This document shows positions 20,005 through 45,320 of a DNA stretch of 64,000 nt, piece by piece; positions within the stretch are counted from its first letter, which is position 1, and the number at the start of each line of letters is the position of its first letter. Source of the stretch: Spirochaetota bacterium. Lineage in GTDB: Bacteria > Spirochaetota > UBA4802 > UBA5550. A program made the translations under genes and the position numbers. The notes under the pieces were generated by a model, which was not told the DNA's origin, made no database searches, and worked only from the letters and a program-made list of their open reading frames with translations. The DNA lies in contig JAGNKX010000006.1 in the NCBI GenBank assembly GCA_017999915.1, positions 64,077 through 128,076 on the forward strand, written 5' to 3'.

Positions 20005-20055
20005 TTGACACCAGAACCCTACTGAATATAGTTCACATATTGAATATTATTCAAT
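20005..20055 (+). promoter_or_regulatory. Promoter of xsc. The -35 is TTGACA at 20005-20010, followed by a 16-bp spacer and a -10 TATAGT at 20027-20032. Two operators, TGAATATAGTTCA and ATTGAATA-T-TATTCAAT, overlap the -10 and the transcription start.
   Basis: Read directly. There is a perfect 8-1-8 palindrome at 20039-20055. The RBS GGAGG lies 8 bp before the ATG. Confidence 0.55.
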
Positions 20056-21805: not shown

Positions 21806-21824
21806 GCCGCTGCCGGGAGGGGCG

Positions 21825-23018
21825 ATGAAGGTCCTGGTGATCAACGCGGGAAGCAGTTCCCTGAAATTCCAGGTCCATGACGGAGACGCCGGGGCCATGG
21901 TCGTCAAGGGCCATTACCTCGATATCGGCGAGACCTCCGCGGACCGCGCCTGCGTGCGGAAGATAACCGCTCGGGGCGCGGAGGAGAAGACGGAGATGGC
22001 GGTCAGGGACCACCGCTCCGCCATCCTTGACATGCTGGGGCTCCTCGAATCGAGGGGCGCCGCTTCCGGCCGGTGCGGCATCTCCGCCGTCGGCCACCGC
22101 ATCGTCCACGGCGGCGAGCGCTACAGCGCGGCCGCGCGGATCACGGCGGACGTGCGGGACTACCTCGAGTCGATATCGTTTCTCGCTCCGCTCCATAATC
22201 CAGTCGGCCTCGCCTGCGTCGACGAGATCGCGGCGTCGCTGCCGGACCTGCCGCAGTACGCCATCTTTGACACGGCCTTTCACCGGACCATCCCGGAGAC
22301 GGTCTACCTCTACGGGCTCCCGATGGAGCTCTACACGAAATACGGCATACGGAAATACGGCTTCCACGGCACCAACCACAAGTACGCGGCGCACCGGGCC
22401 GCGGAGATCATGGGCCGGGACATAGCCTCCCTGAGGATCATAACCTGCCACCTGGGCAACGGCCAGAGCGTCTGCGCCGTGAAACGGGGTCAGAGCGTGG
22501 ACACCTCCATGGGGTTCACCCCCCTGGAGGGCCTGCCGATGGGGACGCGGAGCGGCTCCTTCGACCCGGCCATAATCTTTTTCCTGATAGACCAGGGCTA
22601 CGAACCGGACGAGATCAGGACCATGGTCAACAAGCGGTCCGGACTCCTCGGCGTGTCCGGGATCAGCAGCGACTTCAAGGTCCTGGAGGAGAGGGCGCGG
22701 GGCGGGGATGAAAACGCCAAGCGTGCCGTCGATATGCTCGCCAACCGCATCACCTGCCTGATCGGAGCCTACACGGCGGAAATGTCCGGGGCCGACGCCA
22801 TCGTGTTCACCGGCGGCATCGGGGAGAATTCGGCGTTTTTGCGGAAGGAAGTTCTGGGCGCCCTGGCCCATACGGGCCTCGCCGTCGACGACAGGGCCAA
22901 TGAGGCCCATGATGAAGTGATCACCGCGCCGGGAAGCGCGGTCACGGCCCTGGTGATACCCGCGGACGAGGAGCTTCAGATCGCGCGGGAAGTGATCGGG
23001 GCGATCGAGGGACAATGA
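21825..23018 (+). CDS. ackA: Acetate kinase.
   Basis: 397 aa. It has MKVLVINAGSSSLKFQ and HRIVHGG motifs. It is 19 bp after xsc with its own RBS. Confidence 0.9.
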   Translation: MKVLVINAGSSSLKFQVHDGDAGAMVVKGHYLDIGETSADRACVRKITARGAEEKTEMAVRDHRSAILDMLGLLESRGAASGRCGISAVGHRIVHGGERYSAAARITADVRDYLESISFLAPLHNPVGLACVDEIAASLPDLPQYAIFDTAFHRTIPETVYLYGLPMELYTKYGIRKYGFHGTNHKYAAHRAAEIMGRDIASLRIITCHLGNGQSVCAVKRGQSVDTSMGFTPLEGLPMGTRSGSFDPAIIFFLIDQGYEPDEIRTMVNKRSGLLGVSGISSDFKVLEERARGGDENAKRAVDMLANRITCLIGAYTAEMSGADAIVFTGGIGENSAFLRKEVLGALAHTGLAVDDRANEAHDEVITAPGSAVTALVIPADEELQIAREVIGAIEGQ

Positions 23019-23361: not shown

Positions 23362-23425
23362 TTGACAGGGGAAGAGTTGTCCGACATAGTCTCATATAAT
23401 GAATATTATTCATAATATGAATATA
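23362..23425 (+). promoter_or_regulatory. Promoter of the SDR operon. The -35 is TTGACA at 23362-23367, followed by 17 bp and a -10 CATAGT (there is also a TATAAT at 23395-23400). Operators are ATGAATA-T-TATTCAT at 23399-23413 and an extra ATGAATAT half-site at 23418-23425.
   Basis: Read directly. It has the same TGAATA-T-TATTCA core as the xsc operator. Confidence 0.5.
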
Positions 23426-23517
23426 ATTTATTGCAAGCAGTTTATTATGGCAGCGGCAAAAAAAGCGAAAATCCGGGTTGTGCGGCATCGACGGCATGAC
23501 CCTTCAGGAGAACAATC

Positions 23518-27534: not shown

Positions 27535-27544
27535 GATGTGAAGA

Positions 27545-27667: not shown

Positions 27668-27775
27668 AAAAAAAGATTCAACGCGGAGGCGCTGATGAGT
27701 AATCCGTCCTCTGCGACTCAGCGTTGATAAAGCGGTTGATCGCACACTATTGTGAAGTGGTGAAGGTGACAAGGC

Positions 27776-28591: not shown

Positions 28592-28600
28592 AAACAGAGA

Positions 28601-29236
28601 GTGAGACCAATGGGATCACAGGAACGCAGGGAACGGGAAAAGGAAGAGAGAAAGAACCACATCCTCAAGGCGGCGCGGACGCTTCTCCTGAAAAAAGGGC
28701 TCCACGCCACCACGGTCAACCAGATCGCCAAGCTCTCCGAGCTGAGCGTGGGCACCATATACCTCTATTACCACAACAAGGAAGATATTTTCGCGGCGCT
28801 CCAGGAGGAGGGGCTGGCAATGCTGAACGACCAGATAGGGAAGGCCGTGGCGGCGGCGTCCTCCCCGAAGGAGAAGATCAAGGCGGTCGCCCTGGGGTAT
28901 CTCGAGTTCAGCGAAAAGCAGAAGAACTACTACGACATCATCACCTATTTTCTATCGACGCCGGAGCAGCTTTTTCCGCCGCGCCTGAAGAACAGGGTCG
29001 ACAAGACCGGCGGCAGGATCCTCGGCTTCTGCACCGAGGCGATCGAGGCGGGAATGAAGTCAGGCGAATTCAGGAAGGTCAACGCGCGGCGCCACACCAT
29101 CTGGCTCTGGGGCATGCTCCACGGCCTGATCCAGTTCAGGAAGATGGAGAAGACCATCCTCCAGAAAGAGAGCTACACCTCCCTGGTGCAGTACGCCCTC
29201 GAGAATTACCTGAAGACCCTGGCCCCGGAAAAGTAA
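28601..29236 (+). CDS. TetR-family transcriptional regulator.
   Basis: 211 aa. It has an HTH (ATTVNQIAKLSELSVGTIYLYYHNKEDIF). It is 9 bp after the SDR. Confidence 0.8.
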   Translation: MRPMGSQERREREKEERKNHILKAARTLLLKKGLHATTVNQIAKLSELSVGTIYLYYHNKEDIFAALQEEGLAMLNDQIGKAVAAASSPKEKIKAVALGYLEFSEKQKNYYDIITYFLSTPEQLFPPRLKNRVDKTGGRILGFCTEAIEAGMKSGEFRKVNARRHTIWLWGMLHGLIQFRKMEKTILQKESYTSLVQYALENYLKTLAPEK

Positions 29237-31765: not shown

Positions 31766-31782
31766 GGGTCCTCCAGGGTGCG

Positions 31783-32931
31783 TCAATCTCTCCGCCGCAC
31801 CGCGGCTGTTATCTTGAAGAGCAGGGTAAGGATGAAAAGCCCCGTTGCCCACACGCCGAGGGTGATGAATACTTCGGCCAGGGTGGGCCGGTACGACGGT
31901 ATCTTCTCGAGGGGATCGGGGATGAATCCTCCCACCACGAAGCCGAGGCCCTTCTCGATCCACACGGAGGCGAACACGGCGATGGCCGCGATAAGAAGGC
32001 CCGCGTCGCGCCGCCGCGCCGGCGTGTAGAGAATCGCCAAGGCGGCGACTGCCAGGGCTATGGAAATCCACATATAGGGCGTGAGCGACGAGGGATCACC
32101 CCAGCCCCAGAAGAGCCGCTCCAGCGGCGCCCGGTGCGTGGGGATGCCGCTGTAGAGGGCGGTGAATATTTCGAGAATAATGAAAAAGACATGGGCGCTG
32201 AAGGCGTAGGTGATGATGGTCCCCAGGGAGCGCTCGGGCCGGTCGCCCGGGTCGAAATCCGTATAGCGCCGCGCCACGCGGCAGAGCACGATGAGGAGGG
32301 CCGGGCCGGAGGAAAAGGCCGACGCCAGGAAGCGCGCCGCCGTGATGGCCGTGAGCCAGAGGTGCCGCCCCGGGAGCCCCGCGTACAGGAAGGCGGTCAC
32401 GGTGTGGATGCTGATCGCCCAGGGGATCGACAGGTAGATGACCGGCTTCACCCAGGCGGGCGGCGGCGTTCCCCGGTGCTCGGCCGTGAGGACCGTCCAC
32501 CCGATCAGGATGTTGATTACCAGGTATAGGGAAAGGACCACCGTGTCCCAGAACATGGGGGACGTCGGCGACGGATAGAGTATGACGTGGAGTATCCGGA
32601 AGGGCTGTCCCAGGTCGACGAAGATAAAGAGAAGGCACATGACGACCGCGGACACCGCCAGGAATTCCCCCAGGATCGTGATCCTGCCGAAGGCCCGGTG
32701 GTCGTGGAGGTAGTAGGGGAGCACCACCGTCACGGCCGAGGCGGCCACGCCCACCAGGAAGGTGAACTGGGCGATGTAGAGGCCCCAGGACACGCTCCGG
32801 GACATGCCGGTAACGGAAAGACCCTCTGTTGTCTGTTTAAAGTAAAAGAATATCCCCGCTGCGATGAAGAGGCCCAGTGCCAGGAGAAGGAGCCAGTAGC
32901 GCCGCGGGCCATGGAACACTTTTTCTATCAT
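31783..32931 (-). CDS. dsrP: DsrP (NrfD/PsrC-family integral membrane subunit).
   Basis: About 382 aa from MIEKVFHGP (GAGG RBS upstream). It has 10 predicted TM helices and the NrfD family pattern. It is the last gene of dsrMKJOP. Confidence 0.75.
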   Translation of the reverse strand: MIEKVFHGPRRYWLLLLALGLFIAAGIFFYFKQTTEGLSVTGMSRSVSWGLYIAQFTFLVGVAASAVTVVLPYYLHDHRAFGRITILGEFLAVSAVVMCLLFIFVDLGQPFRILHVILYPSPTSPMFWDTVVLSLYLVINILIGWTVLTAEHRGTPPPAWVKPVIYLSIPWAISIHTVTAFLYAGLPGRHLWLTAITAARFLASAFSSGPALLIVLCRVARRYTDFDPGDRPERSLGTIITYAFSAHVFFIILEIFTALYSGIPTHRAPLERLFWGWGDPSSLTPYMWISIALAVAALAILYTPARRRDAGLLIAAIAVFASVWIEKGLGFVVGGFIPDPLEKIPSYRPTLAEVFITLGVWATGLFILTLLFKITAAVRRRD

Positions 32932-32938
32932 GGAATCC

Positions 32939-33709
32939 TCACAGGAGATAGTATACGGCCGGGTCGGTCCCGAGCTCCGGTTTTCGCCGGAGGGCGATCC
33001 TTCCGGCCAGTGCCTTCCGCACCGCCGAGGCGCCATCGCGGAGGTCGCCGAAGGCAATGGCCTTTTCACCGCAGGCGGACGCGCACAGGGGCTCCTGGCC
33101 GCGGTCGACCCGCTCCGCGCAGAACTCGCATTTTTCCACGGTCCCCTTGGTGCGGGTCGGGTAGTCTTTATTGATAGATTGCTTCGCCAGGTATTTTCGC
33201 GGGTCGCTCCAGTTGAAGCTCCGGGAGCCGTAGGGGCAGGCAGCCATGCAGTAGTGGCAGCCGATGCAGCGGTGCTGGTCCATCATGACGATGCCGTCGC
33301 CGCGCTTCCAGGTCGCGCCGGTGGGGCACACCCGCACGCAGGGCGGGTTCCCGCACTGGTTGCAGAGAAGCACCGGTTTCGCGCCGCGCAGTTCCCCGCC
33401 GGAAAAGTCGTCCAGGACGCCGGGCATGGCGCGCTCCAGGTCGTCCCGCCAGATCCAGGCGATGGCCCGCTTCACGTCCGGTATGGCCGGCACGTTGTGG
33501 CCCCGGTGGCAGGCGTCGACGCACTTCTCGCACTGCCCCGCCTTCAGGCAGGCCCGGAGGTCCACCGCCATGGCGAGGCGTTTTCCGGCCGGCGGCGCGG
33601 TTTCGGCGCCGAGGGCTTTGCCGGCCATGATCTCGAAGGAGGCGCCGCCGAATATGATGATGCCGGTGCGCCAGGCCTTTCTCAGGAATTCAAGCCGTGT
33701 CAGTTCCAT
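32939..33709 (-). CDS. dsrO: DsrO (periplasmic FeS ferredoxin-like subunit, PsrB/HmcB family).
   Basis: 256 aa. It has multiple 4Fe-4S motifs (CNQCGNPPCVRVCP, CIGCHYCMAACP, CEFCAERVDRG). It has an N-terminal Tat-like signal. Confidence 0.75.
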   Translation of the reverse strand: MELTRLEFLRKAWRTGIIIFGGASFEIMAGKALGAETAPPAGKRLAMAVDLRACLKAGQCEKCVDACHRGHNVPAIPDVKRAIAWIWRDDLERAMPGVLDDFSGGELRGAKPVLLCNQCGNPPCVRVCPTGATWKRGDGIVMMDQHRCIGCHYCMAACPYGSRSFNWSDPRKYLAKQSINKDYPTRTKGTVEKCEFCAERVDRGQEPLCASACGEKAIAFGDLRDGASAVRKALAGRIALRRKPELGTDPAVYYLL

Positions 33710-34092
33710 GGTCCCCGCTCCGATGTGTCGATATGGCAGTCAAAGCAGGCCGGTGCCGACCCCAGGGCGGTGTGGCAGCGGTCGCAGAAATTTTCTTTTT
33801 TAGCATGGCATTTGAGGCAGGAGCCGCTGAGGCTCTTCTCGTACTGTTTGCCGCCGATTGTCACGGCGCTGCGGACGCCCTTCCGCACGACATCGTCGCG
33901 CCATTGAAAGAGGAGGGTCATGTGGTTCGCCCTCATCTCCGACGCGGGGAGGACGCATTCTTTTTCAACGGCGGGCTTTTCCGGCGCCGGCGATTTTTTC
34001 TTCGCGCCGCGCAGGACGTTCCACCAGAAGGGCGCCCCCACCAGGGCGGCGACCAGGGTCAATGCGGCGGCCGTCTTTATTATCCTACTCAT
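33700..34092 (-). CDS. dsrJ: DsrJ (periplasmic triheme cytochrome c).
   Basis: 130 aa with a signal peptide. It has three CxxCH motifs (CLKCH, CDRCH, CFDCH). Confidence 0.8.
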   Translation of the reverse strand: MSRIIKTAAALTLVAALVGAPFWWNVLRGAKKKSPAPEKPAVEKECVLPASEMRANHMTLLFQWRDDVVRKGVRSAVTIGGKQYEKSLSGSCLKCHAKKENFCDRCHTALGSAPACFDCHIDTSERGPWN

Positions 34093-35710
34093 TTTTGCTG
34101 CCCTCCTCCCCGAGGGGCTCGCCCCTCAGGTTCGCGGTCCGGGGCGTCTCGCCCTTCATGACCAGGGCGTTGCCCAGGAGCTCGTGGACGCCGCACACGT
34201 CCACGCCGGGGACCCAGAACTGCATCAGGGTGGGGAGCGTGGCCTTGTCGATGGCGCAGATGCAGGAGAGCATGTTCACGCCGTGGCGCTCCCGCACGTG
34301 GCGCACCGCCTGGGCCCGGGGGAGGCCGCCGCGCAGGCGCATTTCCAGGTTCTCGTCCGTGCCGATGCCGGAGCCGCTGCCGCAGCAGAAGGTGTGCTCC
34401 CGGATGGTCTCCTCCGGCATTTCGTAGAAATGATCGCAGGAGGCCTCGATGACGGCCCGGGGCTCGTCGAAGAGGCCCATGGCCCGGGCCGGGTTGCACG
34501 AGTCGTGGTAGGTCACGCGGTAGGCCCTGTTACGGGAGGGGTCCAGGGCGAGCTTCTTATTGTGTATAAGGTCGGCGGTGAATTCGCAGATATGGACCAT
34601 CTTTGTCGAGCGGGCGTGGTCGAAGACCGTGCCGGTGACCGGCGACCGGGGCGTTTCCAGAAAATCGGCCGGCCCGTTCATGGTGTCCATGTACTGGTGG
34701 ATGACGCGCCACATGTGGCCGCACTCGCCCCCCAGGACCCACTTCACGCCCAGGCGCTTCGCCTCGGCGTAGATCTTGGCGTTGAGGCGCTTCATCAGCT
34801 CCGTCGAGTGGAAGAGGCCGAAGTTTCCTCCCTCCGACGCGAAGGCGCTGAAGGTATAATCGATCCCCATCTCGTGGAGCATCATCAGGTACCCGTAGAA
34901 GGTGAAGATGTGGGGATCGGCGAAGATGTCTGCCGACGGGATTATGAAGAGGATCTCGGCGCCCTTCCTGTTTATGGTGGGCTCCACCGTGATCCCCGTG
35001 AGCTCCCGGATCTCGTCCACGGCGAAATCGATGTTGTCGCGGAAGGTGTGGGGCTGGAGCCCCAGGTGGTTCCCGGTGCGGAAGCAGTTCGAGGCCGGCT
35101 CGATGATCCAGTTGATGTTCACGCCGATGAGGTTCAGGAGCTCCCGGCCCATCATGGTGATCTCGGCCGTATCGATGCCGTAGGGGCAGTAGACCGCGCA
35201 GCGGCGGCACTCGGTGCACTGGTAAAAATAATAAAACCACTCTTTTATAACCTGCTCCGTGAGGCGGCGGGCGCCGATGAGCCTGCCGAAGATCCTTCCC
35301 GGAAGGGTGAGCTCGCCGCGGTAGACCGACCGGAGGAGCTCGGCGCGGAGCACCGGCATATTTTTCGGGTCGCCGGTGCCGAGGAAGAAGTGGCACTTGT
35401 CGGCGCAGGCGCCGCAGCGCGCGCAGGTCTCCATGAAGAGTCGGAACGACCGGTTCCGGCCCAGGCGCTCCCGCATACCATCAAGGACGATCTTTTTCCA
35501 GTCCGGCGGGAGCTTCCAGTCCCCGTCATGGGGCTGCCACTCCCGCGGGTTCGGCAGGCCCAGGTACTGGACGTGCTTCGCCACGCCGGCGTGGCTGTAG
35601 GTGCCCTTGCGCATCGGCGCCGGCATATCCTTCCAGTCTTCGGCGGGCATAGGGGCCGCCATGGCCAGGTCGTGGGGTCGGTATTTCTCAGCCATTGCCG
35701 CCTCCCTCAA
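34085..35710 (-). CDS. dsrK: DsrK (HdrD-like catalytic FeS subunit with a CCG domain).
   Basis: 541 aa. It has CARCGACADKCHFF, CTECRRCAVYCP and CCG-domain cysteines (...FCCGSGSG). Confidence 0.85.
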   Translation of the reverse strand: MREAAMAEKYRPHDLAMAAPMPAEDWKDMPAPMRKGTYSHAGVAKHVQYLGLPNPREWQPHDGDWKLPPDWKKIVLDGMRERLGRNRSFRLFMETCARCGACADKCHFFLGTGDPKNMPVLRAELLRSVYRGELTLPGRIFGRLIGARRLTEQVIKEWFYYFYQCTECRRCAVYCPYGIDTAEITMMGRELLNLIGVNINWIIEPASNCFRTGNHLGLQPHTFRDNIDFAVDEIRELTGITVEPTINRKGAEILFIIPSADIFADPHIFTFYGYLMMLHEMGIDYTFSAFASEGGNFGLFHSTELMKRLNAKIYAEAKRLGVKWVLGGECGHMWRVIHQYMDTMNGPADFLETPRSPVTGTVFDHARSTKMVHICEFTADLIHNKKLALDPSRNRAYRVTYHDSCNPARAMGLFDEPRAVIEASCDHFYEMPEETIREHTFCCGSGSGIGTDENLEMRLRGGLPRAQAVRHVRERHGVNMLSCICAIDKATLPTLMQFWVPGVDVCGVHELLGNALVMKGETPRTANLRGEPLGEEGSKNE

Positions 35711-36683
35711 GGTCGTAGCCTGATTTCGCCAGGCGGTCGCGGAACTCCTCCTCCCACTCGCCGTAGCTGTGGACCGGCACCTCGGGGTTCCACGGGTTCA
35801 CCCGGCGCCGCCTGCGGCTGTCCGCGGCGGCATTCCGTGTCGGCGAGAAGAATACGCCGGCCATGTGCGATATCTTGCCGGCCGGTATCGCGGCGGCCAG
35901 GATCGAGACCAGGGCGATGTGCACGTAGAACGAGGGCGGCGCCTTTTCCGGAAGGACCGGGCTGAAGGAGAGGAGCCCCAGTGCGTACTGCTTCACCGCC
36001 AGGAGGTCGACGCGGCCGAAATAGCGCAGCCAGATGCCGGAGAGGGCCACGGCCCCGATCAGGGCCAGGAGAAAATAATCCTGGAACAGCGAGACATAGG
36101 CCACACGCCGGTCCGCGATGCGCCTCATGAAAAGGAAAAGGAGCGCGGCGATTATGATAATGTCGGTGATAAGCAGAGGCGGAGTGCCGATATGGAAGAC
36201 GCCGTCAATGCTCTGCAGCAGCCCGGTCCATGCCGGCACCGGCTCGACGGCGAGGCGCAGGTGCCTGAGAACGATGACGAGCATGGACCAGTGAAAGGCC
36301 ATGGAGCCCAGCCAGAGCCACGTGGCCGGTCCGTACACGATGGCCGTGCCGTACCGGCCGGCTTTAGAATTCCTGAAAAGGGAGCGGAAAAGGGCCGTTT
36401 CCAGGACCATGCGGAGCGCCGCAGCCCAGGGGCGCTGGGGATTGTCCAGGGGCTCCGCCTTCACCCAGAGAAGGGACTTCTGCTGGCCGCAGGTGACAGC
36501 TATATTGAAGGGAACCGGGGTCAGGGCCCAGCGGCCCACGCGCCAGAGCATCCCCGCGGCCAGGACCAGGCAGCCGGCGTAGGGCAGGGCGATGCCGATG
36601 AGGCCCCTCAGGCCCAGGACCGCGCAGGCCCAGGCGGCTAAGGCGATACAGGCGGCTGCCGCTATGGCGATGGCGCTTTTCAT
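35688..36683 (-). CDS. dsrM: DsrM (NarI-like dihaem membrane cytochrome b).
   Basis: 331 aa with 5-6 TM segments. It has the NarI-family pattern. The 3' end overlaps the dsrK start. Confidence 0.8.
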   Translation of the reverse strand: MKSAIAIAAAACIALAAWACAVLGLRGLIGIALPYAGCLVLAAGMLWRVGRWALTPVPFNIAVTCGQQKSLLWVKAEPLDNPQRPWAAALRMVLETALFRSLFRNSKAGRYGTAIVYGPATWLWLGSMAFHWSMLVIVLRHLRLAVEPVPAWTGLLQSIDGVFHIGTPPLLITDIIIIAALLFLFMRRIADRRVAYVSLFQDYFLLALIGAVALSGIWLRYFGRVDLLAVKQYALGLLSFSPVLPEKAPPSFYVHIALVSILAAAIPAGKISHMAGVFFSPTRNAAADSRRRRRVNPWNPEVPVHSYGEWEEEFRDRLAKSGYDLEGGGNG

Positions 36684-37192
36684 TGGCCGGCCTCCACGCT
36701 TTTATTCTCGTTTAATACCCGTATTTCCGTACGCCGCCGTTCCCTCGATTTCAGCCGGGGGATGAGGGCGCGGTATTCATGGTAGAGTTCTTTCGCGACC
36801 GATATCCATTCGTCAAGGGCGGCGTCAATGACACGTACCGCCTCTTTCCCGGCGCCGTCACGGCCGGCGGCGTGTTCCTCGACAAGGGTTTTCAGCATCA
36901 GGAGAAAATCGACGGCGTCTTCGGGCCCGGTCGCTTCCAGGGACTGCAGCTTCATGAAGGTGTCCAGGGACCCGATCATGAAATCCCGCCCGCACTCACC
37001 GGCGATCCCGGCGAGGATCTTGTGAATGGTGTCATGGAGTATGAAGCCCCGTATGTTCCTGAAGCGGTCCGCCTCTCCCCGCGCCGGGGAGCATCCGGCC
37101 GCGTTATGGATACGCTCGCTCCAGGGGACCGCTACGGCTTCGCAGATCTCCGCCACCAGGGCGGCAGTGTCGTTGTTGCTCCTTTCGATCAT
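36680..37192 (-). CDS. Hypothetical protein upstream of dsrM and translationally coupled to it. The start may be leaderless.
   Basis: The ORF stop overlaps the dsrM ATG (ATGA). Only the MIERSNND start is compatible with the promoter palindrome. There is no RBS, and a -10-like CACAAT lies 6 nt before the ATG. Confidence 0.35.
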   Translation of the reverse strand: MIERSNNDTAALVAEICEAVAVPWSERIHNAAGCSPARGEADRFRNIRGFILHDTIHKILAGIAGECGRDFMIGSLDTFMKLQSLEATGPEDAVDFLLMLKTLVEEHAAGRDGAGKEAVRVIDAALDEWISVAKELYHEYRALIPRLKSRERRRTEIRVLNENKSVEAGQ

Positions 37193-37221
37193 GGTGTGAT
37201 TGTGCGGCCGGAGGCGTCCCG

Positions 37222-37262
37222 TGTCAATTAAAAAATGAATGGTATTCATTTTTTAATTGACA
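37222..37262. promoter_or_regulatory. 41-bp near-perfect palindrome TGTCAATTAAAAAATGAATG-G-TATTCATTTTTTAATTGACA, a divergent dsr promoter/operator. It has TTGACA -35 hexamers on both strands flanking a central AAAAAATGAAT-GGT-ATTCATTTTTT inverted repeat.
   Basis: Read directly. On the plus strand, TTGACA at 37257-37262 is followed by 16-17 bp and TAGATT, with the RBS GAGGAGG before dsrA. On the minus strand, a mirrored -35 is followed by 17 bp and CACAAT. Near-identical copies lie at 42317-42349 and 44098-44135. Confidence 0.6.
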
Positions 37263-37319
37263 TTCAGTGAATGGCCCCTAGATTGGTGATATCGATATTA
37301 AATTTTGAGGAGGTGACCC

Positions 37320-38486
37320 ATGTCGGATACACCCCTGCTGGATAAGCTGGAACAGGGCCTGTGGCCCAGCTTCGTAAAGGAGATCAAGCGCGCGGCGGAG
37401 AAGAACCCCGCGGCGAAGGACCTGCTCGGCATCGTCGAGCTGTCCTATAATGACAAGGTGACCCACTGGAAGCACGGGGGCATCGTCGGCGTCGTGGGAT
37501 ACGGCGGCGGCGTCATCGGCCGCTATTCGGACGTGGCCGAAAAGTTCCCGGCCGCGGAACAGTTTCACACCGTACGGGTGAACCATCCCGCAGGATGGTT
37601 CTATGACACGAAATCGCTCAGGAAGATATGCGATATATGGGAGAAGCATGGCAGCGGCCTGACCAACTTCCACGGCTCCACCGGCGACATCATACTGCTG
37701 GGCACCAGGACCGACAGCGTCCAGCCCTGCTTCAACGAGCTTTCCGAGGCGGGCTTCGACCTGGGAGGCTCCGGGTCGTGCCTGCGGACGCCGACGGGAT
37801 GCGTGGGACCGGCCCGGTGCGAATGGTCCTGCTTCGATACCCTGGACCTCATCCACGACCTGACCCACTCGTTCCAGGACGAGCTGCACCGGCCGCGGTG
37901 GCCCTACAAGTTCAAGATCAAGGCCTCCGGCTGTCCCAACGACTGCGTGGCCGCCATAGCGCGGTCCGATTTCACCATCATCGGGACCTGGCGCGGCAGC
38001 ATCAGGATCAACAACGACGAGATCAAGAAATACGTCGCGAAGGGCGTGAACATGAAGGAGGACATCGTGGACCGCTGTCCCGGGAGCGCCCTTTCCTTCG
38101 ACGAAAAAACATCGACCCTGTCGGTGCGGCCGGAGGAATGCGTCCGGTGCATGCACTGCATCAACAAGCTCACGAAGGCGGTCAAGCCGGGCGCGGAGAA
38201 GGGCGCGGCCATTCTCATCGGCGGCAAGGCGCCGATTCTCCGCGGCGCCTTCCTCTCCTGGGTGCTGGTCCCCTTCATGGAGATCAAGCCGCCCTACAAG
38301 GAGATCAAGGACCTGCTGGCCAAGATGTGGGACTGGTGGGACGAGAACGGCAGGAACCGCGAGCGTATCGCCGAGACCATTTCGCGCGTCGGCCTGAAGG
38401 TGTTCCTGAAGGCCATGGATATGAAGCCGCTGCCGCAGATGGTCAAGCATCCGCGGTCGAATCCCTTCGTATTTTATAACCGATAA
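37320..38486 (+). CDS. dsrA: Dissimilatory sulfite reductase alpha subunit.
   Basis: 388 aa. It has [31 protein letters not shown] and a siroheme/FeS Cys cluster ([23 protein letters not shown]). Confidence 0.9.
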
Positions 38487-38507
38487 CTATCGCAGGAGGA
38501 AAACATT

Positions 38508-39566
38508 ATGGCACGCACAGATATAGGCCCCCCGGATTTCCGCACCATGCTGCCGGAGGCCATCAAGAAAAATTACGGTACATGGGATTACCACGAGATT
38601 CTGAAGCCGGGCGTGATGCGCCACGTCGCGGCCGGCGGCGACGTGCTCTATACCGTCAGGGCTGGCACGCCCCGCCTGCTGAGCATCGATTGTGTCCGCG
38701 ACATCTGCGACATAGCGGACAAGTACTGCGACGGCCATCTCCGGTTCACGAGCCGGGCCAACGTGGAGTTCATGACGCCGAAGAAGGAGAACGTCGACGG
38801 CATCGTAGCGGCGGCGAAGGCCATGGGGCTCCCGGTGGGAGGCATCGGCGACTGCGTGTCGAACATCGTCCACACCCAGGGGTGGATCCACTGCCACAGC
38901 GCCGCCACTGACGCGTCGGGCCTGGTGAAGGCGATCATGGACGAGCTCTACGGCTACTTCACCGAGTTCAGGCTCTCGTCGAAGCTGCGCATCGCCGTGG
39001 CCTGCTGCATCAACATGTGCGGCGCCGTCCATTGCTCCGACCTGGCCGTGGTGGGCGTCCATACCAAGCCCCCCAAGATCGACAATGACCGCCTGACCAA
39101 GGCGTGCGAGATTCCGTCCACGATCCGGTCGTGCCCCACGGGGGCCATCCGGAAGAACCCGGACGGCGACGGCCTGGTGGTGAACCGCGAGCGGTGCATG
39201 TACTGCGGCAACTGCTACACCGTGTGCCCCGCCATGCCCCTGGCCGACGCCGAGGGAGACGGCCTCGCCATCTTTGTCGGCGGCAAGGTCTCCAACGCGC
39301 GCAAGGCGCCGATGTTCTCGCGCCTGGCGATACCCTTCCTGCCGAACAATCCGCCCCGCTGGCCCGAGGTGACCGATGCCCTGAAGAACATCGTCGAGGT
39401 GTATGTTAAGCATTCGCGCAAGTACGAGCGCCTGGGCGAGTGGATCGAGCGGATCGGGTGGGAGCGCTTCTTCACCCTCACCGGCATAGAGTTCACCGAG
39501 GACCACGTGGACGATTTCACCACCGCCACGGAGACCTACCGGTCGTCGATGCAGTACCGCTGGTAA
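38508..39566 (+). CDS. dsrB: Dissimilatory sulfite reductase beta subunit.
   Basis: 352 aa. It has [44 protein letters not shown] and a ferredoxin domain ([12 protein letters not shown]). Confidence 0.9.
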
Positions 39567-39628
39567 CGCCGGCAAGAAAATCCCCCGGGCCTTTGTTCGG
39601 GGTTTGTATAGAGCAAAGAATTATGCGG

Positions 39629-39661
39629 GAGAGCCCCATTCCGGGATGCCGGGATGGGGCT
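39629..39661. terminator. GC hairpin GAGCCCCA-ttccgggatgccggga-TGGGGCTC followed by a T-rich tract. It is a bidirectional terminator between the convergent dsrB and hydrolase genes.
   Basis: Read directly. Confidence 0.6.
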
Positions 39662-39668
39662 CTTGTTA

Positions 39669-40493
39669 TTAATTGCCGGCGAGCCCGCCGTAGGCGCCGG
39701 GGCGGCGCTCTTTCAGGAAATACCCCATGGACGAGGAGCGCACCCGGCCGATGACGTCGCGGCGCACATCGGCGGCCGCGATGGCGGCGCCGTCTCCGTG
39801 GGAGCTGTCCAGGATCTCGCCCTTCGGATCGAGGACCAGGCTCGCCCCCTGGAACACCATGGCGCGGCCGTTGTCGCCGCACTGGTTGCAGGCCGCCACG
39901 TAAAGGCCGTTGTCGTAGGCCCGCGCAGGCAGGTAGCGGAGCCACCGGGCGAGCTTTTCCGCCGGGGTTTCCGGCGGCGGCGACGCGTGGGGATAAAATA
40001 TGATGTCCGCCCCGGCCAGGGCGTAGAGGGTCGCGAGCTCGGGGAAGTGCGCGTCATAGCAGAGGCCGATGCCGAAGGAGAAGCCCTTCCACCGGAAGAC
40101 GGGCGTTTCGCTCCCGGCCGCGAAGAGTCGCTGCTCCCCGGGAGAAAGGTGCATCTTGCGGTAGAGCCCTATCAGGCCCCCTGGCCCCGCCGCGACCTGG
40201 GTTATGAAAAATTCGCCGCCGGAGCGTTCGATGAATCCCGCGATCACCGCGCACCCCCGTGTGCTGCTCGTCTGGATGAGCCGTTCGGTGAGGGGGCCGG
40301 GCACTTCCTCGGCCAGGTCCAGGGCGTCCTTCGAGAGACAGTAGCCGGTGAGGGAGCACTCCGGGAAGCAGACAATATCCGCGCCAGCGGTCCCGGGACC
40401 CTGAAGGAGCCCTTCCATTAATGAGAAGTTCCCGTCAACGTCGCCAAAGGGGGCGGGGCAGCTCACCGCGGCGATCCTGATAACATCAGTCAT
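39669..40493 (-). CDS. Carbon-nitrogen hydrolase (nitrilase superfamily).
   Basis: 274 aa. It has the E-K-C triad context (FPECSLTGY, ...KMHL..., GIGLCYDAHFPE). Its start overlaps the dsrN stop (ATGA). Confidence 0.7.
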   Translation of the reverse strand: MTDVIRIAAVSCPAPFGDVDGNFSLMEGLLQGPGTAGADIVCFPECSLTGYCLSKDALDLAEEVPGPLTERLIQTSSTRGCAVIAGFIERSGGEFFITQVAAGPGGLIGLYRKMHLSPGEQRLFAAGSETPVFRWKGFSFGIGLCYDAHFPELATLYALAGADIIFYPHASPPPETPAEKLARWLRYLPARAYDNGLYVAACNQCGDNGRAMVFQGASLVLDPKGEILDSSHGDGAAIAAADVRRDVIGRVRSSSMGYFLKERRPGAYGGLAGN

Positions 40494-41905
40494 GATATCC
40501 TCTCCCGGGCCAGGGCCACCAGGGCCCGCGGCCAGGTGACGCCGCTTCCCAGGGCGTGGGTGTGGCAGAAGGTCCCCAGGGCGTTCTTATACAGGACCCC
40601 GTCGCGGCCCTCCCTGAGGCCCGTGCCGCGCTCCATGGAGAAAACGGTTTCAACGGCGCCGGCGCCGTTGAGGCGCGAATACCTGAATTCATGGCCCCGC
40701 ACAACGGTTCCCTGCGGATAATAGGGATTGCCCCGGTCAACGGTGAAGCAGGTGTAGCCATGGCCCTGGGGCTTCCGGCTCACGGTGAAGCGGAGAGGGA
40801 ACACGCCGGTCATCGGGTATTCCGTTCCGCCGGCATCCAGCGTTTCGGAAAGATACACCAGGCCGCCGCATTCGGCGTAGACCGGCAGGCCCTCCTCCAC
40901 GGCGTCGCGGATGGCTTTTCGCAATGAGACGTTGGCCGCGATCTCCCGCGCGTGGGTCTCGGGAAACCCCCCGCCTATGTAAAGCCCGTCGATGGGCGGC
41001 AGCGCCGCGTCGCGCATCGAATCGATCTCGACGATGGCGGCGCCGCTCCCGGCCAGGGCCTCTATGTTTTCAGGATAGTAAAAGGTGAAGGCGCTGTCGC
41101 GGATGACGCCGATGGTCGGAGCCGCTTTCCCGGTTTCCGGTGAAGGCGCGGCGCTGTCGGCAGGGCCGCCGAAAAGCGACGCCAGGGACGGATAGCCATG
41201 GCGCTCCATGATGGCCATGATGCCGTCGAGGTCCACGGCTGCGCCCACGGCGCGCGTTATGGTCTCGATGATGCGGTCCGGTTCAGTGTGCTCCTGCACC
41301 GGCACGAGACCCAGGCTTCGCTCCGCAAGGTCGAGGCCCGGTATGCGGGGGATGGCGCCCAGGACCGGTATGCCGCAGTAGCGCTCGATGGCGCCGGCTG
41401 TGATGGAGCGGTGCCGCTCCCCGGCCACGCGGTTCAGGATCACGCCGCGCAGGGCCAGGTCAGGGTCGAAGGCCTGGCAGCCCCGGACCATGGCGGCGAC
41501 GGTGCGGCTCGCCTTGGCGCAATCGGCCACCAGTATGACCGGTATACCCAGGAGCCCGGCAAGGCCTGCGACGCTGTGGGTCCCTTCAATGTCCATGCCG
41601 TCGAAGATGCCGCGGTTTCCCTCCACGACGGCGACGGCGCAGTCGCTGTTGCGGGACAGGTACGTATCAATGATGGCGTCCCTTTCCAGGAGATAGGTGT
41701 CGAGATTGTGGCAGTGGCGGCCGGCCGCGCGGGTGAGCCAGGCCGGGTCGATGTAGTCAGGCCCCTTCTTGAAGGGGGCGGCGGCGATGCCGCTCCGCCT
41801 CAGCGCCCCGATGAGGCCCAGGGTCACCAGGGTCTTGCCGCTGCCGCCCCTGAGGCCGGCGACGGCGATTCCCCTGCGGGATTGCGTTCGGGTGCTGTCG
41901 GCCAT
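40490..41905 (-). CDS. dsrN: Cobyrinic acid a,c-diamide synthase homologue; likely DsrN (siroheme amidase).
   Basis: 471 aa. It has an N-terminal P-loop (GLRGGSGKT) and a C-terminal GATase with AECGG. It sits directly downstream of dsrC in a dsr locus. Confidence 0.65.
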   Translation of the reverse strand: MADSTRTQSRRGIAVAGLRGGSGKTLVTLGLIGALRRSGIAAAPFKKGPDYIDPAWLTRAAGRHCHNLDTYLLERDAIIDTYLSRNSDCAVAVVEGNRGIFDGMDIEGTHSVAGLAGLLGIPVILVADCAKASRTVAAMVRGCQAFDPDLALRGVILNRVAGERHRSITAGAIERYCGIPVLGAIPRIPGLDLAERSLGLVPVQEHTEPDRIIETITRAVGAAVDLDGIMAIMERHGYPSLASLFGGPADSAAPSPETGKAAPTIGVIRDSAFTFYYPENIEALAGSGAAIVEIDSMRDAALPPIDGLYIGGGFPETHAREIAANVSLRKAIRDAVEEGLPVYAECGGLVYLSETLDAGGTEYPMTGVFPLRFTVSRKPQGHGYTCFTVDRGNPYYPQGTVVRGHEFRYSRLNGAGAVETVFSMERGTGLREGRDGVLYKNALGTFCHTHALGSGVTWPRALVALARERIS

Positions 41906-41932
41906 GGGCGCCGGAACAGTCCTGGCGGCGGG

Positions 41933-42250
41933 TTATACGCATCCGGTCGGTTTCGGCAGTCCCGCCCATTTGCACGCGGAGTTGGCCGGCCCCTGCGGAA
42001 ACAGCTCGTACATCTGTTTCAGCTGCACGCCCGTTTCCTTGGTGAGTTTGCGCACCATGGGGGCGATGCCGTTGTCCTTGTAATAGTCCCGAAGGTAATT
42101 CATCACCTTCCAGTGCTCGTCGGTGAGGCTGTTGATGCCTTCCTTTCCGGCCAGGGCAGCCGCGATGGCTTCAGTCCATTTCTCCGGCTCCTGGAGGAAG
42201 CCGTCCTCGTCAACCTCGTACATTACGCCGTTGAGTTCGATTTGTGGCAT
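41933..42250 (-). CDS. dsrC: DsrC.
   Basis: 105 aa. It has the canonical C-terminal arm ...CKWAGLPKPTGCV with two conserved Cys. Confidence 0.9.
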   Translation of the reverse strand: MPQIELNGVMYEVDEDGFLQEPEKWTEAIAAALAGKEGINSLTDEHWKVMNYLRDYYKDNGIAPMVRKLTKETGVQLKQMYELFPQGPANSACKWAGLPKPTGCV

Positions 42251-42316: not shown

Positions 42317-42349
42317 TGAATGTCAATTAAAAAATGAACGGTATTCATT
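42317..42349. promoter_or_regulatory. dsr promoter/operator motif copy 2 (TGAATGTCAATTAAAAAATGAACGGTATTCATT), oriented toward dsrC.
   Basis: It is nearly identical to 37222-37262. The minus-strand TTGACA lies about 90 bp upstream of the dsrC ATG. Confidence 0.55.
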
Positions 42350-42412
42350 ATTTTTGTTCCCAAAACCTGCCCCGCCTCGTCGATTGATTTACGGCGCCAA
42401 TTATTAGTTTTT

Positions 42413-44097: not shown

Positions 44098-44135
44098 TGA
44101 ATGTCAATTAAAAAATGAACGGTATTCATTTTTTT
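44098..44135. promoter_or_regulatory. dsr promoter/operator motif copy 3, oriented toward the MCP gene.
   Basis: TGAATGTCAATTAAAAAATGAACGGTATTCATTTTTTT. There are only 1-2 mismatches to the other copies over about 35 bp. Confidence 0.55.
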
Positions 44136-44261
44136 GCTTCACCTGCGCGGAGCAGGGGGAAAATTTGTTGACAGTGACCTTGTAGAGGCTTTCCTTCAGG
44201 AAAGACCATGGTTTTGAGAAACGCGGCGGCCCAATCCATCCGGCTCTGAACAGGACCCGAC

Positions 44262-45122: not shown

Positions 45123-45193
45123 TGTAAATTATTCTCTTGACGTGGATGTGTGAACTTTTTTAAAATACAAACATTCTAACATGATGCGATTCT

Positions 45194-45294
45194 CCCTCCC
45201 CCTTGATGGGGGAGGATCGAGGTGGGGGTGAATGCATTATTAGGCGTGACGCGATATGATCACCCTCCCCTTTCCCCTCCCATCAAGGGAGGGG
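45194..45294. repeat. Pair of oppositely oriented REP-like GC hairpins about 60 bp apart: CCTCCCCC-TTGAT-GGGGGAGG and CCCCTCCC-ATCAA-GGGAGGGG.
   Basis: Read directly. The hairpin at 24381-24403 belongs to the same family. Confidence 0.55.
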
Positions 45295-45320
45295 GATCTC
45301 GAAATATTCAAGGTGATTGA

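What the first reader, a model, noticed from the sequence alone, without database searches (positions are those of the whole stretch)
37222..37262. Palindromic divergent dsr promoter: a 41-bp AT-rich block with mirrored TTGACA hexamers serving dsrAB and the dsrMKJOP operon
The 41-bp block TGTCAATTAAAAAATGAATG-G-TATTCATTTTTTAATTGACA is an almost perfect palindrome. Each arm ends in a consensus -35 hexamer facing outward. On the plus strand it is followed 16-17 bp later by TAGATT, a 28-nt leader with a GAGGAGG RBS, and dsrA. On the minus strand it is followed 17 bp later by CACAAT and, 6 nt further on, the ATG of the ORF fused to dsrM. The central 11-3-11 repeat AAAAAATGAAT-GGT-ATTCATTTTTT lies about 14 bp upstream of both -35 elements. 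It looks like a shared activator or repressor site, or an UP element. The same about 35-bp block recurs almost unchanged upstream of dsrC and an MCP gene. An AT block of this length conserved at 3 sites in a roughly 62% GC genome argues for a dedicated regulator of the sulfite-reduction regulon that has not, to my knowledge, been described.
Basis: seen in the sequence. Interest (0 to 1): 0.75.

Follow-up and report, generated by a model that had tools for sequence, protein, structure and literature searches.

The report
Shared operator in divergent dsr promoters
The AT-rich palindrome between the sulfite-reductase genes dsrAB and the dsrMKJOP operon of an uncultured spirochaete is a real, conserved control region: two back-to-back promoters around a 13-bp operator that also sits before dsrC and the sulfite-releasing xsc genes, and is probably bound by a TetR-family repressor encoded 8 kb away.

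Summary
Positions 37222-37262 form a 19-3-19 palindrome with outward TTGACA hexamers, and near-identical blocks lie upstream of dsrC and an MCP gene. The block 37222-37266 is invariant in six related Spirochaetota species, apart from its centre, while the flanks diverge. The 25-nt pattern occurs at most twice per related genome, so it is not a dispersed repeat.

It is a 13-bp core, TGAAY-N3-RTTCA, with 6 exact copies in the window against 0.12 expected, all in promoters. In more distant relatives the 41-bp block is lost, but the core stays upstream of dsrA and dsrC.

The core also occurs as tandem pairs (13+5+13) over the -10/+1 of xsc-ackA (sulfoacetaldehyde acetyltransferase) and of an SDR-TPP-MFS-SDR-TetR operon. 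The MCP copy is a local duplication of the dsrC copy.

Orthologues of that TetR gene (28601-29236) in other lineages sit in operons whose promoters carry the same operator. Its closest solved relative is Bacillus FadR, which recognises TGAAT/ATTCA half-sites.

Best reading: a TetR-type repressor regulon that couples organosulfonate breakdown to sulfite respiration. Binding, effector and transcription starts are inferred, not shown. This is a new member of a known kind and of moderate interest.

The parts
37222..37262 (.). 41-bp 19-3-19 palindrome. It comprises two outward -35 hexamers, symmetric A6/T6 tracts and the central operator.
   Evidence: Invariant in 6 species except the centre.
37236..37248 (.). 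Core operator TGAATGGTATTCA (TGAAY-N3-RTTCA), centred about -50 from both predicted transcription starts.
   Evidence: A PWM trained without the dsr-module sites ranks it 3rd of 64,000 positions.
37257..37284 (+). Predicted sigma-70 promoter of dsrAB: TTGACA (37257-37262), 16-nt spacer, TAGATT (37279-37284).
   Evidence: In all 6 species the -10 position keeps A2 and T6 at a 16-nt spacer (read by eye).
37199..37227 (-). Predicted sigma-70 promoter of ORF170-dsrMKJOP: TTGACA (37227-37222), 17-nt spacer, CACAAT (37204-37199). The ATG follows 6 nt later, so the mRNA would be leaderless or nearly so.
   Evidence: CAGAAT or CATAAC is found at 17-18 nt in three relatives and is unclear in two others.
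37254..37266 (.). Weak second operator-like site TAATTGACATTCA, 18 bp from the core and embedding the dsrA -35. Its outer half ATTCA is invariant in 6 species.
   Evidence: PWM score 6.1 bits, rank 21 of 64,000. There is no equivalent on the dsrM side (-25.7 bits).
37307..37313 (+). Shine-Dalgarno sequence GAGGAGG of dsrA, inside a conserved 5' leader (GATATT..AATTTGAGGAGG).
37320..39566 (+). dsrA (37320-38486) and dsrB (38508-39566).
   Evidence: Pfam NIR_SIR and NIR_SIR_ferr. Homologues are named dissimilatory sulfite reductase.
36680..37192 (-). Conserved 170-aa ORF of unknown function. It is the first gene of the dsrMKJOP operon, and its stop overlaps the dsrM start.
   Evidence: No Pfam or NCBIfam hit. 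An orthologue has a weak RsbRD_N hit.
31783..36683 (-). dsrM (35688-36683), dsrK (34085-35710), dsrJ (33700-34092), dsrO (32939-33709) and dsrP (31783-33069).
   Evidence: Pfam. Synteny with relatives.
42317..42359 (-). Module copy upstream of dsrC, with core TGAACGGTATTCA at 42335-42347. A second TTGACA (42315-42310) plus TATATT (42293-42288) is the likelier dsrC promoter.
   Evidence: Conserved in L025, L037 and L038.
39669..42250 (-). dsrC (41933-42250), a dsrN-like cobyrinate a,c-diamide synthase (40490-41905) and a CN-hydrolase (39669-40493).
   Evidence: Pfam.
44098..44140 (-). Module copy upstream of the MCP gene, with core at 44116-44128. It is a duplicate of the dsrC copy that arose with insertion of the MCP gene (42413-44026).
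20005..20053 (+). xsc-ackA promoter: TTGACA (20005-20010), 12 nt, operator 1 (20023-20035, covering the -10), 5 nt, operator 2 (20041-20053).
   Evidence: Conserved in xsc orthologues of at least 80% identity.
20081..23018 (+). xsc, sulfoacetaldehyde acetyltransferase (20081-21805), and ackA (21825-23018).
   Evidence: NCBIfam TIGR03457 at 749.6 bits and NF005713 at 830.9 bits, both above cut-off. Pfam Acetate_kinase.
23362..23430 (+). Promoter of the SDR-TPP-MFS-SDR-TetR cluster: TTGACA (23362-23367), 17 nt, CATAGT, then operators at 23400-23412 and 23418-23430 (13+5+13).
   Evidence: Conserved in L046 and L052.
28601..29236 (+). TetR-family regulator gene, the candidate binder of the operator. 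Public gene calls start it at 28610 (208 aa).
   Evidence: Pfam TetR_N. Orthologue contexts and their operators. Closest solved structure is Bacillus FadR.

Best explanation
The 41-bp palindrome is the control region of two back-to-back sigma-70 promoters. One drives dsrAB. The other drives a 170-aa ORF plus dsrMKJOP.

At its centre is a 13-bp operator, TGAAT-N3-ATTCA. A/T tracts on each side run directly into the two outward-facing TTGACA -35 hexamers. On the dsrA side, and likewise at dsrC and the MCP gene, a weaker second site (TAATTGACATTCA) lies 18 bp away and contains the -35.

The same operator, as tandem pairs with the same 13+5+13 spacing, covers the -10/+1 of the xsc-ackA promoter and of the SDR-TPP-MFS-SDR-TetR promoter.

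The most likely binder is the TetR-family protein encoded at the end of that last cluster (28601-29236). It would act as a repressor that an effector from organosulfonate or sulfite metabolism releases. Sulfite-producing genes (xsc) and sulfite-consuming genes (dsrAB, dsrC, dsrMKJOP) would then be switched on together.

**Shown:** the sequence features, their conservation, their restriction to these promoters, and the linkage of the operator to the TetR orthologue group.
**Inferred:** binding by this TetR, repression rather than activation at the dsr promoters, the effector, and the transcription starts.
For: 1. **Conservation.** The block 37222-37266 is invariant in six species (DsrA 86-94% identical) apart from four central positions, while the flanking intergenic DNA is largely not conserved. 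The central triplet occurs as GGT or as its complement ACC (GGC with a G in the adjacent half-site in one species), as expected for an uncontacted spacer.
2. **Rarity of the core.** The core has 6 exact copies in 64 kb against 0.12 expected, all in promoter regions.
3. **Persistence in distant relatives.** In relatives with DsrA 77-83% identical the 41-bp block is gone. A single core site still lies upstream of dsrA (3 of 3 loci) and upstream of dsrC in the two loci where dsrC has its own upstream region, next to or downstream of promoter-like hexamers. That is 5 sites in 39 kb against 0 expected.
4. **xsc, SDR and TPP promoters.** Most loci with at least 80% Xsc identity show TTGAYA, then site, N5, site (a few keep a single exact site). 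That is 23 sites in 65 kb against 0.15 expected, whereas 365 kb of more distant xsc loci hold none.
5. **Independent PWM.** A PWM trained only on sites outside the dsr modules ranks the seven window sites as the top seven of 64,000 positions.
6. **TetR linkage.** The TetR gene forms a tight orthologue group of 92 proteins. In 8 contexts it lies inside an operon. The operon's promoter lies outside one locus. Three promoters carry an exact core site and a fourth a near-exact tandem (L132, L133, L136, L135), besides the window and L129/L052. L131 has a variant palindrome at the same place.
7. **The site follows the regulator.** In L133 the operon content differs (aminotransferase-glyoxalase-TetR, next to TauE), yet the site is still there.
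8. **Closest solved structure.** The best PDB match of the TetR is Bacillus halodurans FadR (5gp9/5gpc, E = 1e-10). Its box is WTGAATGAMTANTCATTCAN, bound by a dimer of dimers (PMC5397183).
9. **Shared contigs.** TetR and DsrA orthologues report the same longest-contig lengths in at least four cases.
Against: - There is no binding, expression or transcription-start data.
- At the dsr promoters the strong site is centred near -50, an activator-like position, unlike the -10/+1 position at xsc and in more distant dsrA promoters.
- The proposed second site over the dsrA -35 is weak (6 bits) and is absent on the dsrM side.
- The TetR assignment rests on gene neighbourhood, and another factor could recognise the same sites.
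- L131 lacks the canonical core.
- At dsrC and the MCP gene the module's TTGACA has no convincing -10.
Confidence: 0.6

Rival explanations
1. The site is a real operator of the same regulon, but it is bound by a different transcription factor encoded elsewhere. At the dsr promoters that factor may act as an activator from about -50.
For: - The strong site lies near -50 of both dsr promoters, a position typical of activators.
- The TetR link is based on neighbourhood only.
- Other uncharacterised conserved genes sit in the neighbourhood: a 205-aa protein with a histone-H1-like tail at 47336-47953, and proteins of 286 and 285 aa.
Against: - The operator follows the TetR gene even when the rest of the operon changes (L133).
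- TetR is the only recognisable DNA-binding gene conserved in these operons.
- Its closest solved relative recognises TGAAT/ATTCA half-sites.
- At xsc, and in distant dsrA promoters, the geometry is that of a repressor.
Confidence: 0.22
2. There is no dedicated regulator. The block is simply a strong symmetric promoter core: consensus -35 hexamers plus A/T-rich UP-like tracts for alpha-CTD, conserved because the dsr genes need very high expression.
For: - Both -35 hexamers are consensus TTGACA.
- A6/T6 tracts lie immediately upstream of both -35 hexamers.
- Both promoters are predicted by the scan.
Against: - The G/C-containing core TGAAT..ATTCA is invariant.
- The core recurs at other promoters in different positions: over the -10/+1 at xsc and SDR, and next to or downstream of promoter-like hexamers in distant dsrA loci. 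UP elements do not act there.
- The match to the UP consensus is poor (comparison by eye).
Confidence: 0.08
3. It is the site of an already known global regulator with TGAA/TTCA half-sites: Rex (predicted on dsrABD and dsrMKJOP in Desulfovibrio) or ArgR (the ARG box).
For: - Rex sites are predicted and conserved upstream of dsrABD and dsrMKJOP in Desulfovibrio (PMC4045070).
- The ARG box half-sites are TGAAT/ATTCA, and ARG boxes occur in tandem (own knowledge).
Against: - The spacing does not fit. Here it is TGAA-N5-TTCA (13 bp, odd). Rex is TTGTGAA-N4-TTCACAA and the ARG box is TGAAT-N4-ATTCA.
- The G of the Rex GTGAA is absent: the sites read ATGAA, CTGAA or TTGAA.
- Tandem spacing is 18 bp, not about 21 bp.
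- The regulon has no arginine genes.
- The Rex and ArgR consensus sequences are recalled from memory, not taken from a tool.
Confidence: 0.05
4. It is a dispersed, mobile or purely structural palindrome (REP/MITE-like element, cruciform or bidirectional terminator) without gene-specific function.
For: - It is a perfect 19-bp-arm hairpin (z = -7.5).
- One copy has clearly been duplicated locally.
- The central triplet is inverted in some species.
Against: - There are at most two copies per related genome, always at orthologous dsr promoters.
- It lies between diverging genes, not converging ones.
- The stem is A/T-rich, with no G+C-rich terminator stem.
- There is no Rfam match in the window.
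Confidence: 0.03

Closest known systems
Bacillus FadR (YsiA), the TetR-family fatty-acid degradation repressor, and its FadR box
   Same: - It is a TetR-family repressor and the best solved-structure match of the candidate regulator (5gp9/5gpc).
- Its operator half-sites are TGAAT/ATTCA.
- Two dimers bind per promoter.
- The operator lies in the promoter of the operon that encodes the regulator (PMC5397183).
   Different: - The match is only about 45 bits. The NCBIfam FadR equivalog score is 61.9 against a cut-off of 200, so it is not an orthologue.
- The FadR box consists of two overlapping 16-bp repeats offset by 4 bp. Here there are separate 13-bp palindromes 18 bp apart.
- The regulon here is sulfonate and sulfite metabolism, not fatty-acid degradation.
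- The effector is unknown.
Tn10 tetR/tetA divergent promoter-operator region
   Same: Palindromic TetR-family operators lie between and over two back-to-back promoters and control both directions at once (own knowledge).
   Different: - In Tn10 the regulator gene itself is one of the two divergent genes, and two full operators overlap the promoters.
- Here the regulator is encoded 8 kb away.
- There is one strong operator, lying between the -35 hexamers, and only a weak flanking site overlaps one -35.
Predicted Rex regulon of Desulfovibrionales (dsrABD, dsrMKJOP, aprAB, sat, qmo)
   Same: It is the only previously proposed transcription-factor control of dsrAB and dsrMKJOP that I found. The operator is a palindrome with TGAA/TTCA half-sites, and the factor is a repressor of energy-metabolism genes (PMC4045070).
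   Different: - The half-site spacing and flanking bases differ.
- The regulon here is tied to xsc and organosulfonate genes, not to sulfate activation.
- The phylum differs (Spirochaetota).
- The candidate protein belongs to the TetR family, not Rex.

Membership tests
Divergent sigma-70 promoter pair | -35 and -10 hexamers with a 16-18 bp spacer on each strand, facing outward towards genes. | tested here: met
   - 10 of 12 consensus matches on each strand, 2 found against 0.3 expected.
- dsrA side: A2 and T6 of the -10 are kept at a 16-nt spacer in 6 species.
- dsrM side: clear in 4 of 6 species.
Divergent sigma-70 promoter pair | Transcription starts mapped about 7 nt downstream of each -10. 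| not testable with these tools
   There are no transcriptome or 5'-end data for this uncultured organism.
TetR-family repressor/operator system | A TetR_N-containing regulator gene genomically linked to the regulated genes. | tested here: met
   - TetR_N E = 9.5e-14 at 28601-29236.
- It is the last gene of a cluster whose promoter carries the tandem operators.
- TetR and DsrA orthologues report the same longest-contig lengths in at least 4 cases.
TetR-family repressor/operator system | A palindromic operator in the promoter of the regulator's own operon, conserved with the regulator across lineages. | tested here: met
   - Exact core sites in L132, L133 and L136, and a near-exact tandem in L135.
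- A variant palindrome in L131.
- The promoter of L134 lies outside the locus.
- 3 exact sites in 100 kb against 0.3 expected.
TetR-family repressor/operator system | Direct, effector-reversible binding of the protein to the operator. | not testable with these tools
   This needs EMSA or footprinting with purified protein.
Bacillus FadR (YsiA) equivalog | Score above the NCBIfam NF053878 cut-off (200 bits). | tested here: not met
   61.9 bits. It is related, but not FadR.
Rex operator | 18-bp TTGTGAA-N4-TTCACAA palindrome. | tested here: not met
   - All 25 collected sites are TGAA-N5-TTCA and are preceded by A, C or T, not GT.
- The consensus is recalled from the literature.
ARG box (ArgR) | TGAAT-N4-ATTCA in an 18-bp box, with tandem boxes about 21 bp apart, upstream of arginine genes. 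| tested here: not met
   - The spacer is N3.
- Tandem spacing is 18 bp.
- There are no arginine genes in the regulon.
- The consensus is recalled from memory.
UP element | A/T-rich -38 to -59 region matching NNAAAWWTWTTTTNNNAAANNN and stimulating transcription through alpha-CTD. | tested here: inconclusive
   - A6/T6 tracts are present at the right place.
- The match to the consensus is poor by eye.
- The function cannot be tested here.
Dispersed repeat (REP/MITE) | Many copies at unrelated loci in one genome. | tested here: not met
   At most 2 copies of the 25-nt pattern per related genome, both at dsr promoters.

The most novel reading that the evidence does not exclude
This TetR-family protein would be the first dedicated transcription factor for dissimilatory sulfite reductase genes. 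It would sense a sulfonate-derived metabolite, such as sulfoacetaldehyde, or sulfite itself. Through one 13-bp operator it would co-ordinate sulfite production (xsc, the SDR-TPP pathway, an aminotransferase), sulfite respiration (dsrAB, dsrC, dsrMKJOP) and a chemoreceptor. This would be a complete organosulfonate-respiration regulon in uncultured Spirochaetota. At the dsr promoters one dimer placed between two -35 hexamers would control both directions.
Probability: 0.4. Interest if true: 0.6.

Novelty: new member of a known kind. Interest (0 to 1): 0.45.

Why it matters
- Transcriptional control of dsrAB is poorly understood even in model sulfate reducers. In Desulfovibrio the predicted Rex sites did not respond in a rex mutant (PMC4045070).
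- This finding gives a compact, strongly conserved operator and a named candidate regulator. It also gives a coherent regulon linking organosulfonate cleavage (Xsc produces sulfite and acetyl phosphate) to sulfite respiration in uncultured Spirochaetota.
- The prediction can be tested directly in vitro with a 208-aa protein and short oligonucleotides.
- It offers a sequence signature for finding sulfite and sulfonate respiration genes in MAGs.
- It could yield a sulfonate- or sulfite-responsive biosensor part.

Tried and rejected
- **Source genome.** The genome-contig scan did not contain it, so a true genome-wide regulon scan was not possible. The exact DsrA and TetR proteins were found only on short Logan contigs.
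- **Rfam.** The whole window gave no match.
- **Other nearby candidate regulators.** The 170-aa ORF, the 286-aa and 285-aa proteins, the 77-aa Cys-rich ORF and a cupin protein were all checked. None has a DNA-binding domain in Pfam or NCBIfam, even at E <= 1. They are not supported as candidates but not excluded.
- **The 205-aa protein with a histone-H1-like tail (47336-47953).** Noted but not followed up.
- **Rex, ArgR, Fur and ArsR/SmtB-type motifs.** Considered from memory and rejected on half-site spacing.
- **LysR T-N11-A box.** Considered. No LysR gene is nearby and the tandem geometry does not fit.
- **Terminator or cruciform role.** Rejected on gene orientation and A/T-rich stem composition.
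- **Weaker PWM hits** at 1175, 42270 and 50706. These score 11-12 bits with the independently trained PWM and were not pursued.
- **Literature.** Searches for a TetR-type regulator of dsr, xsc or isethionate genes found nothing relevant.
Full report
**1. The observation**

The sequence at 37222-37262 is TGTCAATTAAAAAATGAATGGTATTCATTTTTTAATTGACA. It differs from its own reverse complement only in the central GGT, so it is a 19-3-19 palindrome. Folded as single-stranded DNA it forms the full hairpin at -16.9 kcal/mol, z = -7.5.

A consensus scan of 36900-37500 finds exactly two sigma-70-like promoters, 2 against 0.3 expected:
- TTGACA(37257)-16-TAGATT(37284) on the + strand.
- TTGACA(37227)-17-CACAAT(37199) on the - strand.

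GAGGAGG lies at 37307-37313 and the dsrA ATG at 37320. On the other strand the ATG at 37192 follows CACAAT by 6 nt.

Related blocks lie at 42317-42359 and 44098-44140. The window is 59.7% G+C.

**2. Genes**

| Coordinates | Strand | Gene or product | Evidence |
|---|---|---|---|
| 37320-38486 | + | dsrA | |
| 38508-39566 | + | dsrB | |
| 36680-37192 | - | 170-aa ORF, no family hit | |
| 31783-36683 | - | dsrM, K, J, O, P | |
| 41933-42250 | - | dsrC | |
| 40490-41905 | - | dsrN-like amidase | |
| 39669-40493 | - | CN-hydrolase | |
| 42413-44026 | - | MCP | |
| 20081-21805 | + | Xsc, sulfoacetaldehyde acetyltransferase | |
| 21825-23018 | + | ackA | |
| 23518-29236 | + | SDR, an ALS-like TPP enzyme, MFS transporter, second SDR, TetR-family regulator | |

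- The stop of the 170-aa ORF overlaps the dsrM start, so the two are coupled rather than fused.
- Xsc scores above both NCBIfam cut-offs.

**3. Taxon**

The exact DsrA occurs only on short metagenome contigs. Its closest named homologues are "Spirochaetes bacterium" MAGs, and the identical TetR protein is also labelled that way. dsrAB-carrying Spirochaetota MAGs are known (PMC10591310).

**4. Not a dispersed repeat, and strongly conserved**

I scanned one genome per species (185,579 species) with AAAAAATGAAYNNNATTCATTWWTT. This returned 42 loci.
- Eight are orthologous dsr loci from five related Spirochaetota species, with DsrA 86-94% identical.
- In those genomes the pattern is found only in the dsrA/ORF-dsrM intergenic region and upstream of dsrC, at most two per genome.
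- The other hits are isolated matches in unrelated genomes.

I aligned the ORF-to-dsrA intergenic region of the six species.
- There is an invariant run from 37222 to 37266, interrupted only at the centre (37241-37244).
- The centre is GGT in three species and its complement ACC in two. One species has GGC with a G in the adjacent half-site.
- Outside this block only the 5' leader and Shine-Dalgarno region of dsrA is conserved.
- One species carries about 100 extra bp between the promoter and the leader.
- On the dsrA side the invariance extends beyond the -35 (TTGACATTCA). On the dsrM side it stops at the hexamer.

**5. The functional unit is a 13-bp core**

TGAAYNNNRTTCA has 6 exact matches in the window against 0.12 expected, and all lie in promoter regions:
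- The three module copies.
- Two sites 18 bp apart upstream of xsc (20023, 20041).
- One site upstream of the SDR gene (23400), with a one-mismatch partner 18 bp further on at 23418.

In more distant relatives (DsrA 77-83% identical; L126, L128, L129) the 41-bp palindrome is absent. A single core site still lies upstream of dsrA in all three. It also lies upstream of dsrC in the two loci where dsrC has its own upstream region. These sites lie next to or downstream of promoter-like hexamers.

**6. xsc and SDR promoters**

A metagenome scan with Xsc gave 80 loci.
- Most loci with at least 80% Xsc identity keep TTGACA-N12-[site]-N5-[site] in front of xsc, of the SDR gene or of the TPP gene. A few keep one exact site.
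- The first site contains the -10, which is a repressor geometry.

Counts in sets chosen by protein homology only:

| Set | Exact core sites | Sequence scanned | Expected |
|---|---|---|---|
| xsc loci, at least 80% identity | 23 | 65 kb | 0.15 |
| xsc loci, more distant | 0 | 365 kb | 1.10 |
| Distant dsr loci | 5 | 39 kb | 0 |

**7. Same layout at the dsr promoters**

The arrangement [TGAATGGTATTCA]-TTTTT-[TAATTGACATTCA] has the same 13+5+13 spacing, and the second, degenerate site encloses the dsrA -35. I trained a PWM only on sites outside the dsr modules.
- It ranks the seven window sites as the top seven of 64,000 positions.
- The gene-proximal second sites (37254, 42317, 44098) score 6-9 bits, ranks 12-21.
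- The dsrM-side equivalent scores -25.7, so it is not a site.

**8. The MCP copy is a duplicate**

Relatives lack the MCP gene. In them dsrC is directly divergent from a 286-aa gene, with one module in between. The alignment shows two things:
- The window's MCP-upstream region carries the ancestral promoter of the 286-aa gene.
- The roughly 43-bp module is present on both sides of the inserted MCP gene.

At dsrC a second TTGACA (42315-42310) followed by TATATT is a better promoter than the module's own hexamer.

**9. Candidate regulator**

The TetR gene (28601-29236) belongs to a tight orthologue group of 92 proteins at 43-100% identity, followed by a gap to about 33%. I looked up seven further members. 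Each lies inside an operon, usually SDR-TPP-(transporter)-(AFOR/ADH)-TetR, and once aminotransferase-glyoxalase-TetR beside a TauE gene.

| Locus | Operator at the operon's promoter |
|---|---|
| L132 | TTGACA-N13-TGAATAGCGTTCA-N5-TGAGCGATGCTCA |
| L133 | TTGACA-N7-TGAATGGCATTCA |
| L136 | TTGACG-N12-TGAATATAATTCA-N5-TGAGCGTCATTCA |
| L135 | A near-exact tandem |
| L131 | A variant palindrome, CGAGCGTCGCTCG |
| L134 | Promoter lies outside the locus |

- The site follows the TetR gene even when the enzymes in the operon change.
- L129, which also carries the TetR, is on the same contig as the xsc locus L052, whose SDR promoter carries the site.
- The closest solved structure is Bacillus halodurans FadR (5gp9/5gpc). 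Its box is WTGAATGAMTANTCATTCAN, bound by two dimers (PMC5397183).
- It is not a FadR orthologue (61.9 bits against a 200-bit cut-off).
- In the HTH alignment, L131's protein, which has the variant operator, differs at two positions at the start of the recognition helix. That is a single case, so it is weak support.

**10. Mechanism (inferred)**

A TetR-type dimer binds each 13-bp palindrome.
- At xsc and SDR, two dimers would cover the -10 and +1.
- At the dsr control region, one dimer would sit between the two -35 hexamers, on the A/T tracts where alpha-CTD would otherwise bind.
- A second dimer, at the weak site, could cover the dsrA -35.
- An effector from sulfonate or sulfite metabolism would release the repressor and induce sulfite production and sulfite reduction together.

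An activating role from -50 cannot be excluded.

The ORF170 mRNA would be leaderless or nearly so. There are 6-10 nt between the -10 and the ATG, and no Shine-Dalgarno sequence, in the four species where a dsrM-side -10 can be read.

**11. Comparison with the known**

- In Desulfovibrio, Rex sites are predicted upstream of dsrABD and dsrMKJOP, but these genes did not respond in a rex mutant (PMC4045070). HcpR was predicted not to include DsrAB (PMC545781).
- The present core differs from the Rex operator and from ARG boxes by one base of spacing and in its flanking bases.
- No paper in the searchable library links a TetR regulator to dsr or xsc.

**12. Verdict**

This is a conserved operator-promoter module of a probable TetR-family regulon that couples organosulfonate degradation to dissimilatory sulfite reduction in uncultured Spirochaetota. 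It is a new member of a known kind. The regulon and the operator are well supported. The identity of the binder, the sign of regulation at the dsr promoters and the effector remain to be tested.

Noticed in passing
window 36680-37192 (-): A conserved 170-aa ORF is the first gene of the dsrMKJOP operon in all six close species and also in L126 and L129. It has no family hit, though an orthologue has a weak RsbRD_N (globin-like sensor) hit. It has no Shine-Dalgarno sequence, and its ATG lies 6-10 nt after the predicted -10, which suggests a leaderless mRNA.
   Followed up: partly
window 42413-44026 (-) with 42317-42359 and 44098-44140: The MCP chemoreceptor gene is absent at this position in relatives and is flanked by two copies of the 43-bp operator module. 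It was inserted with duplication of the module. An MCP gene also sits inside the TetR operon of L136, so a chemoreceptor may be a recurrent regulon member.
   Followed up: partly
window 47336-47953 (+): A 205-aa protein has a conserved N-terminal domain and a long lysine/alanine-rich histone-H1-like tail (KKAVKKK repeats). It is conserved next to the dsrC neighbourhood in relatives (88-90% identical over the N-terminal 128 aa). It may be a nucleoid-associated or A/T-binding protein.
   Followed up: no
window 23031-23264 (-): A 77-aa cysteine-containing ORF with no family hit is conserved (42-72% identical) between ackA or xsc and the SDR/TPP genes in L046, L050, L051 and L052.
   Followed up: no
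window 24457-26151 (+) and 23518-24354 (+): An ALS/oxalyl-CoA-decarboxylase-like TPP enzyme (below all NCBIfam cut-offs, about 26% identical to Xsc) is always paired with an SDR. It is often accompanied by AFOR, ADH and sulfonate-type transporters in the TetR operons of several phyla. This may be an uncharacterised (sulfonate?) catabolic pathway.
   Followed up: partly
window 9080-9169, 27552-27641, also 24356-24397 and 45193-45296: G+C-rich palindromic intergenic repeats (CCCTCTCC...GGAGAGGG hairpins of about 90 nt, 84% identical between two copies). They look like REP-like elements or terminators.
   Followed up: no
window 19538-20080: An unusually long (540 bp) A/T-rich intergenic region lies upstream of xsc. 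It contains a 29-nt inverted repeat pair (19670-19698 / 19893-19921, 90% complementary) enclosing about 190 bp. There is no Rfam match.
   Followed up: no
window 29264-30865 (-) and 30869-32071 (-): A second DsrK/HdrD-like protein (NCBIfam DsrK 315 bits, below cut-off) lies directly downstream of dsrP, next to a further ORF. The same paralogue pair is seen in L002, L042 and L128.
   Followed up: no
window 39567-39668: There is no dsrD gene after dsrB in this clade, whereas L128 and L129 have a 67-aa gene (weak HTH_24 hit on the L129 copy) in the position of dsrD directly after dsrB. I did not check whether dsrD lies elsewhere in the genome.
   Followed up: no
window 58658-59133 vs 63514-63986: Two direct repeats (300 nt at 86% and 119 nt at 77%), about 4.85 kb apart, lie inside or next to the 1494-aa gene and the 312-aa gene. 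They are probably paralogous domains.
   Followed up: no
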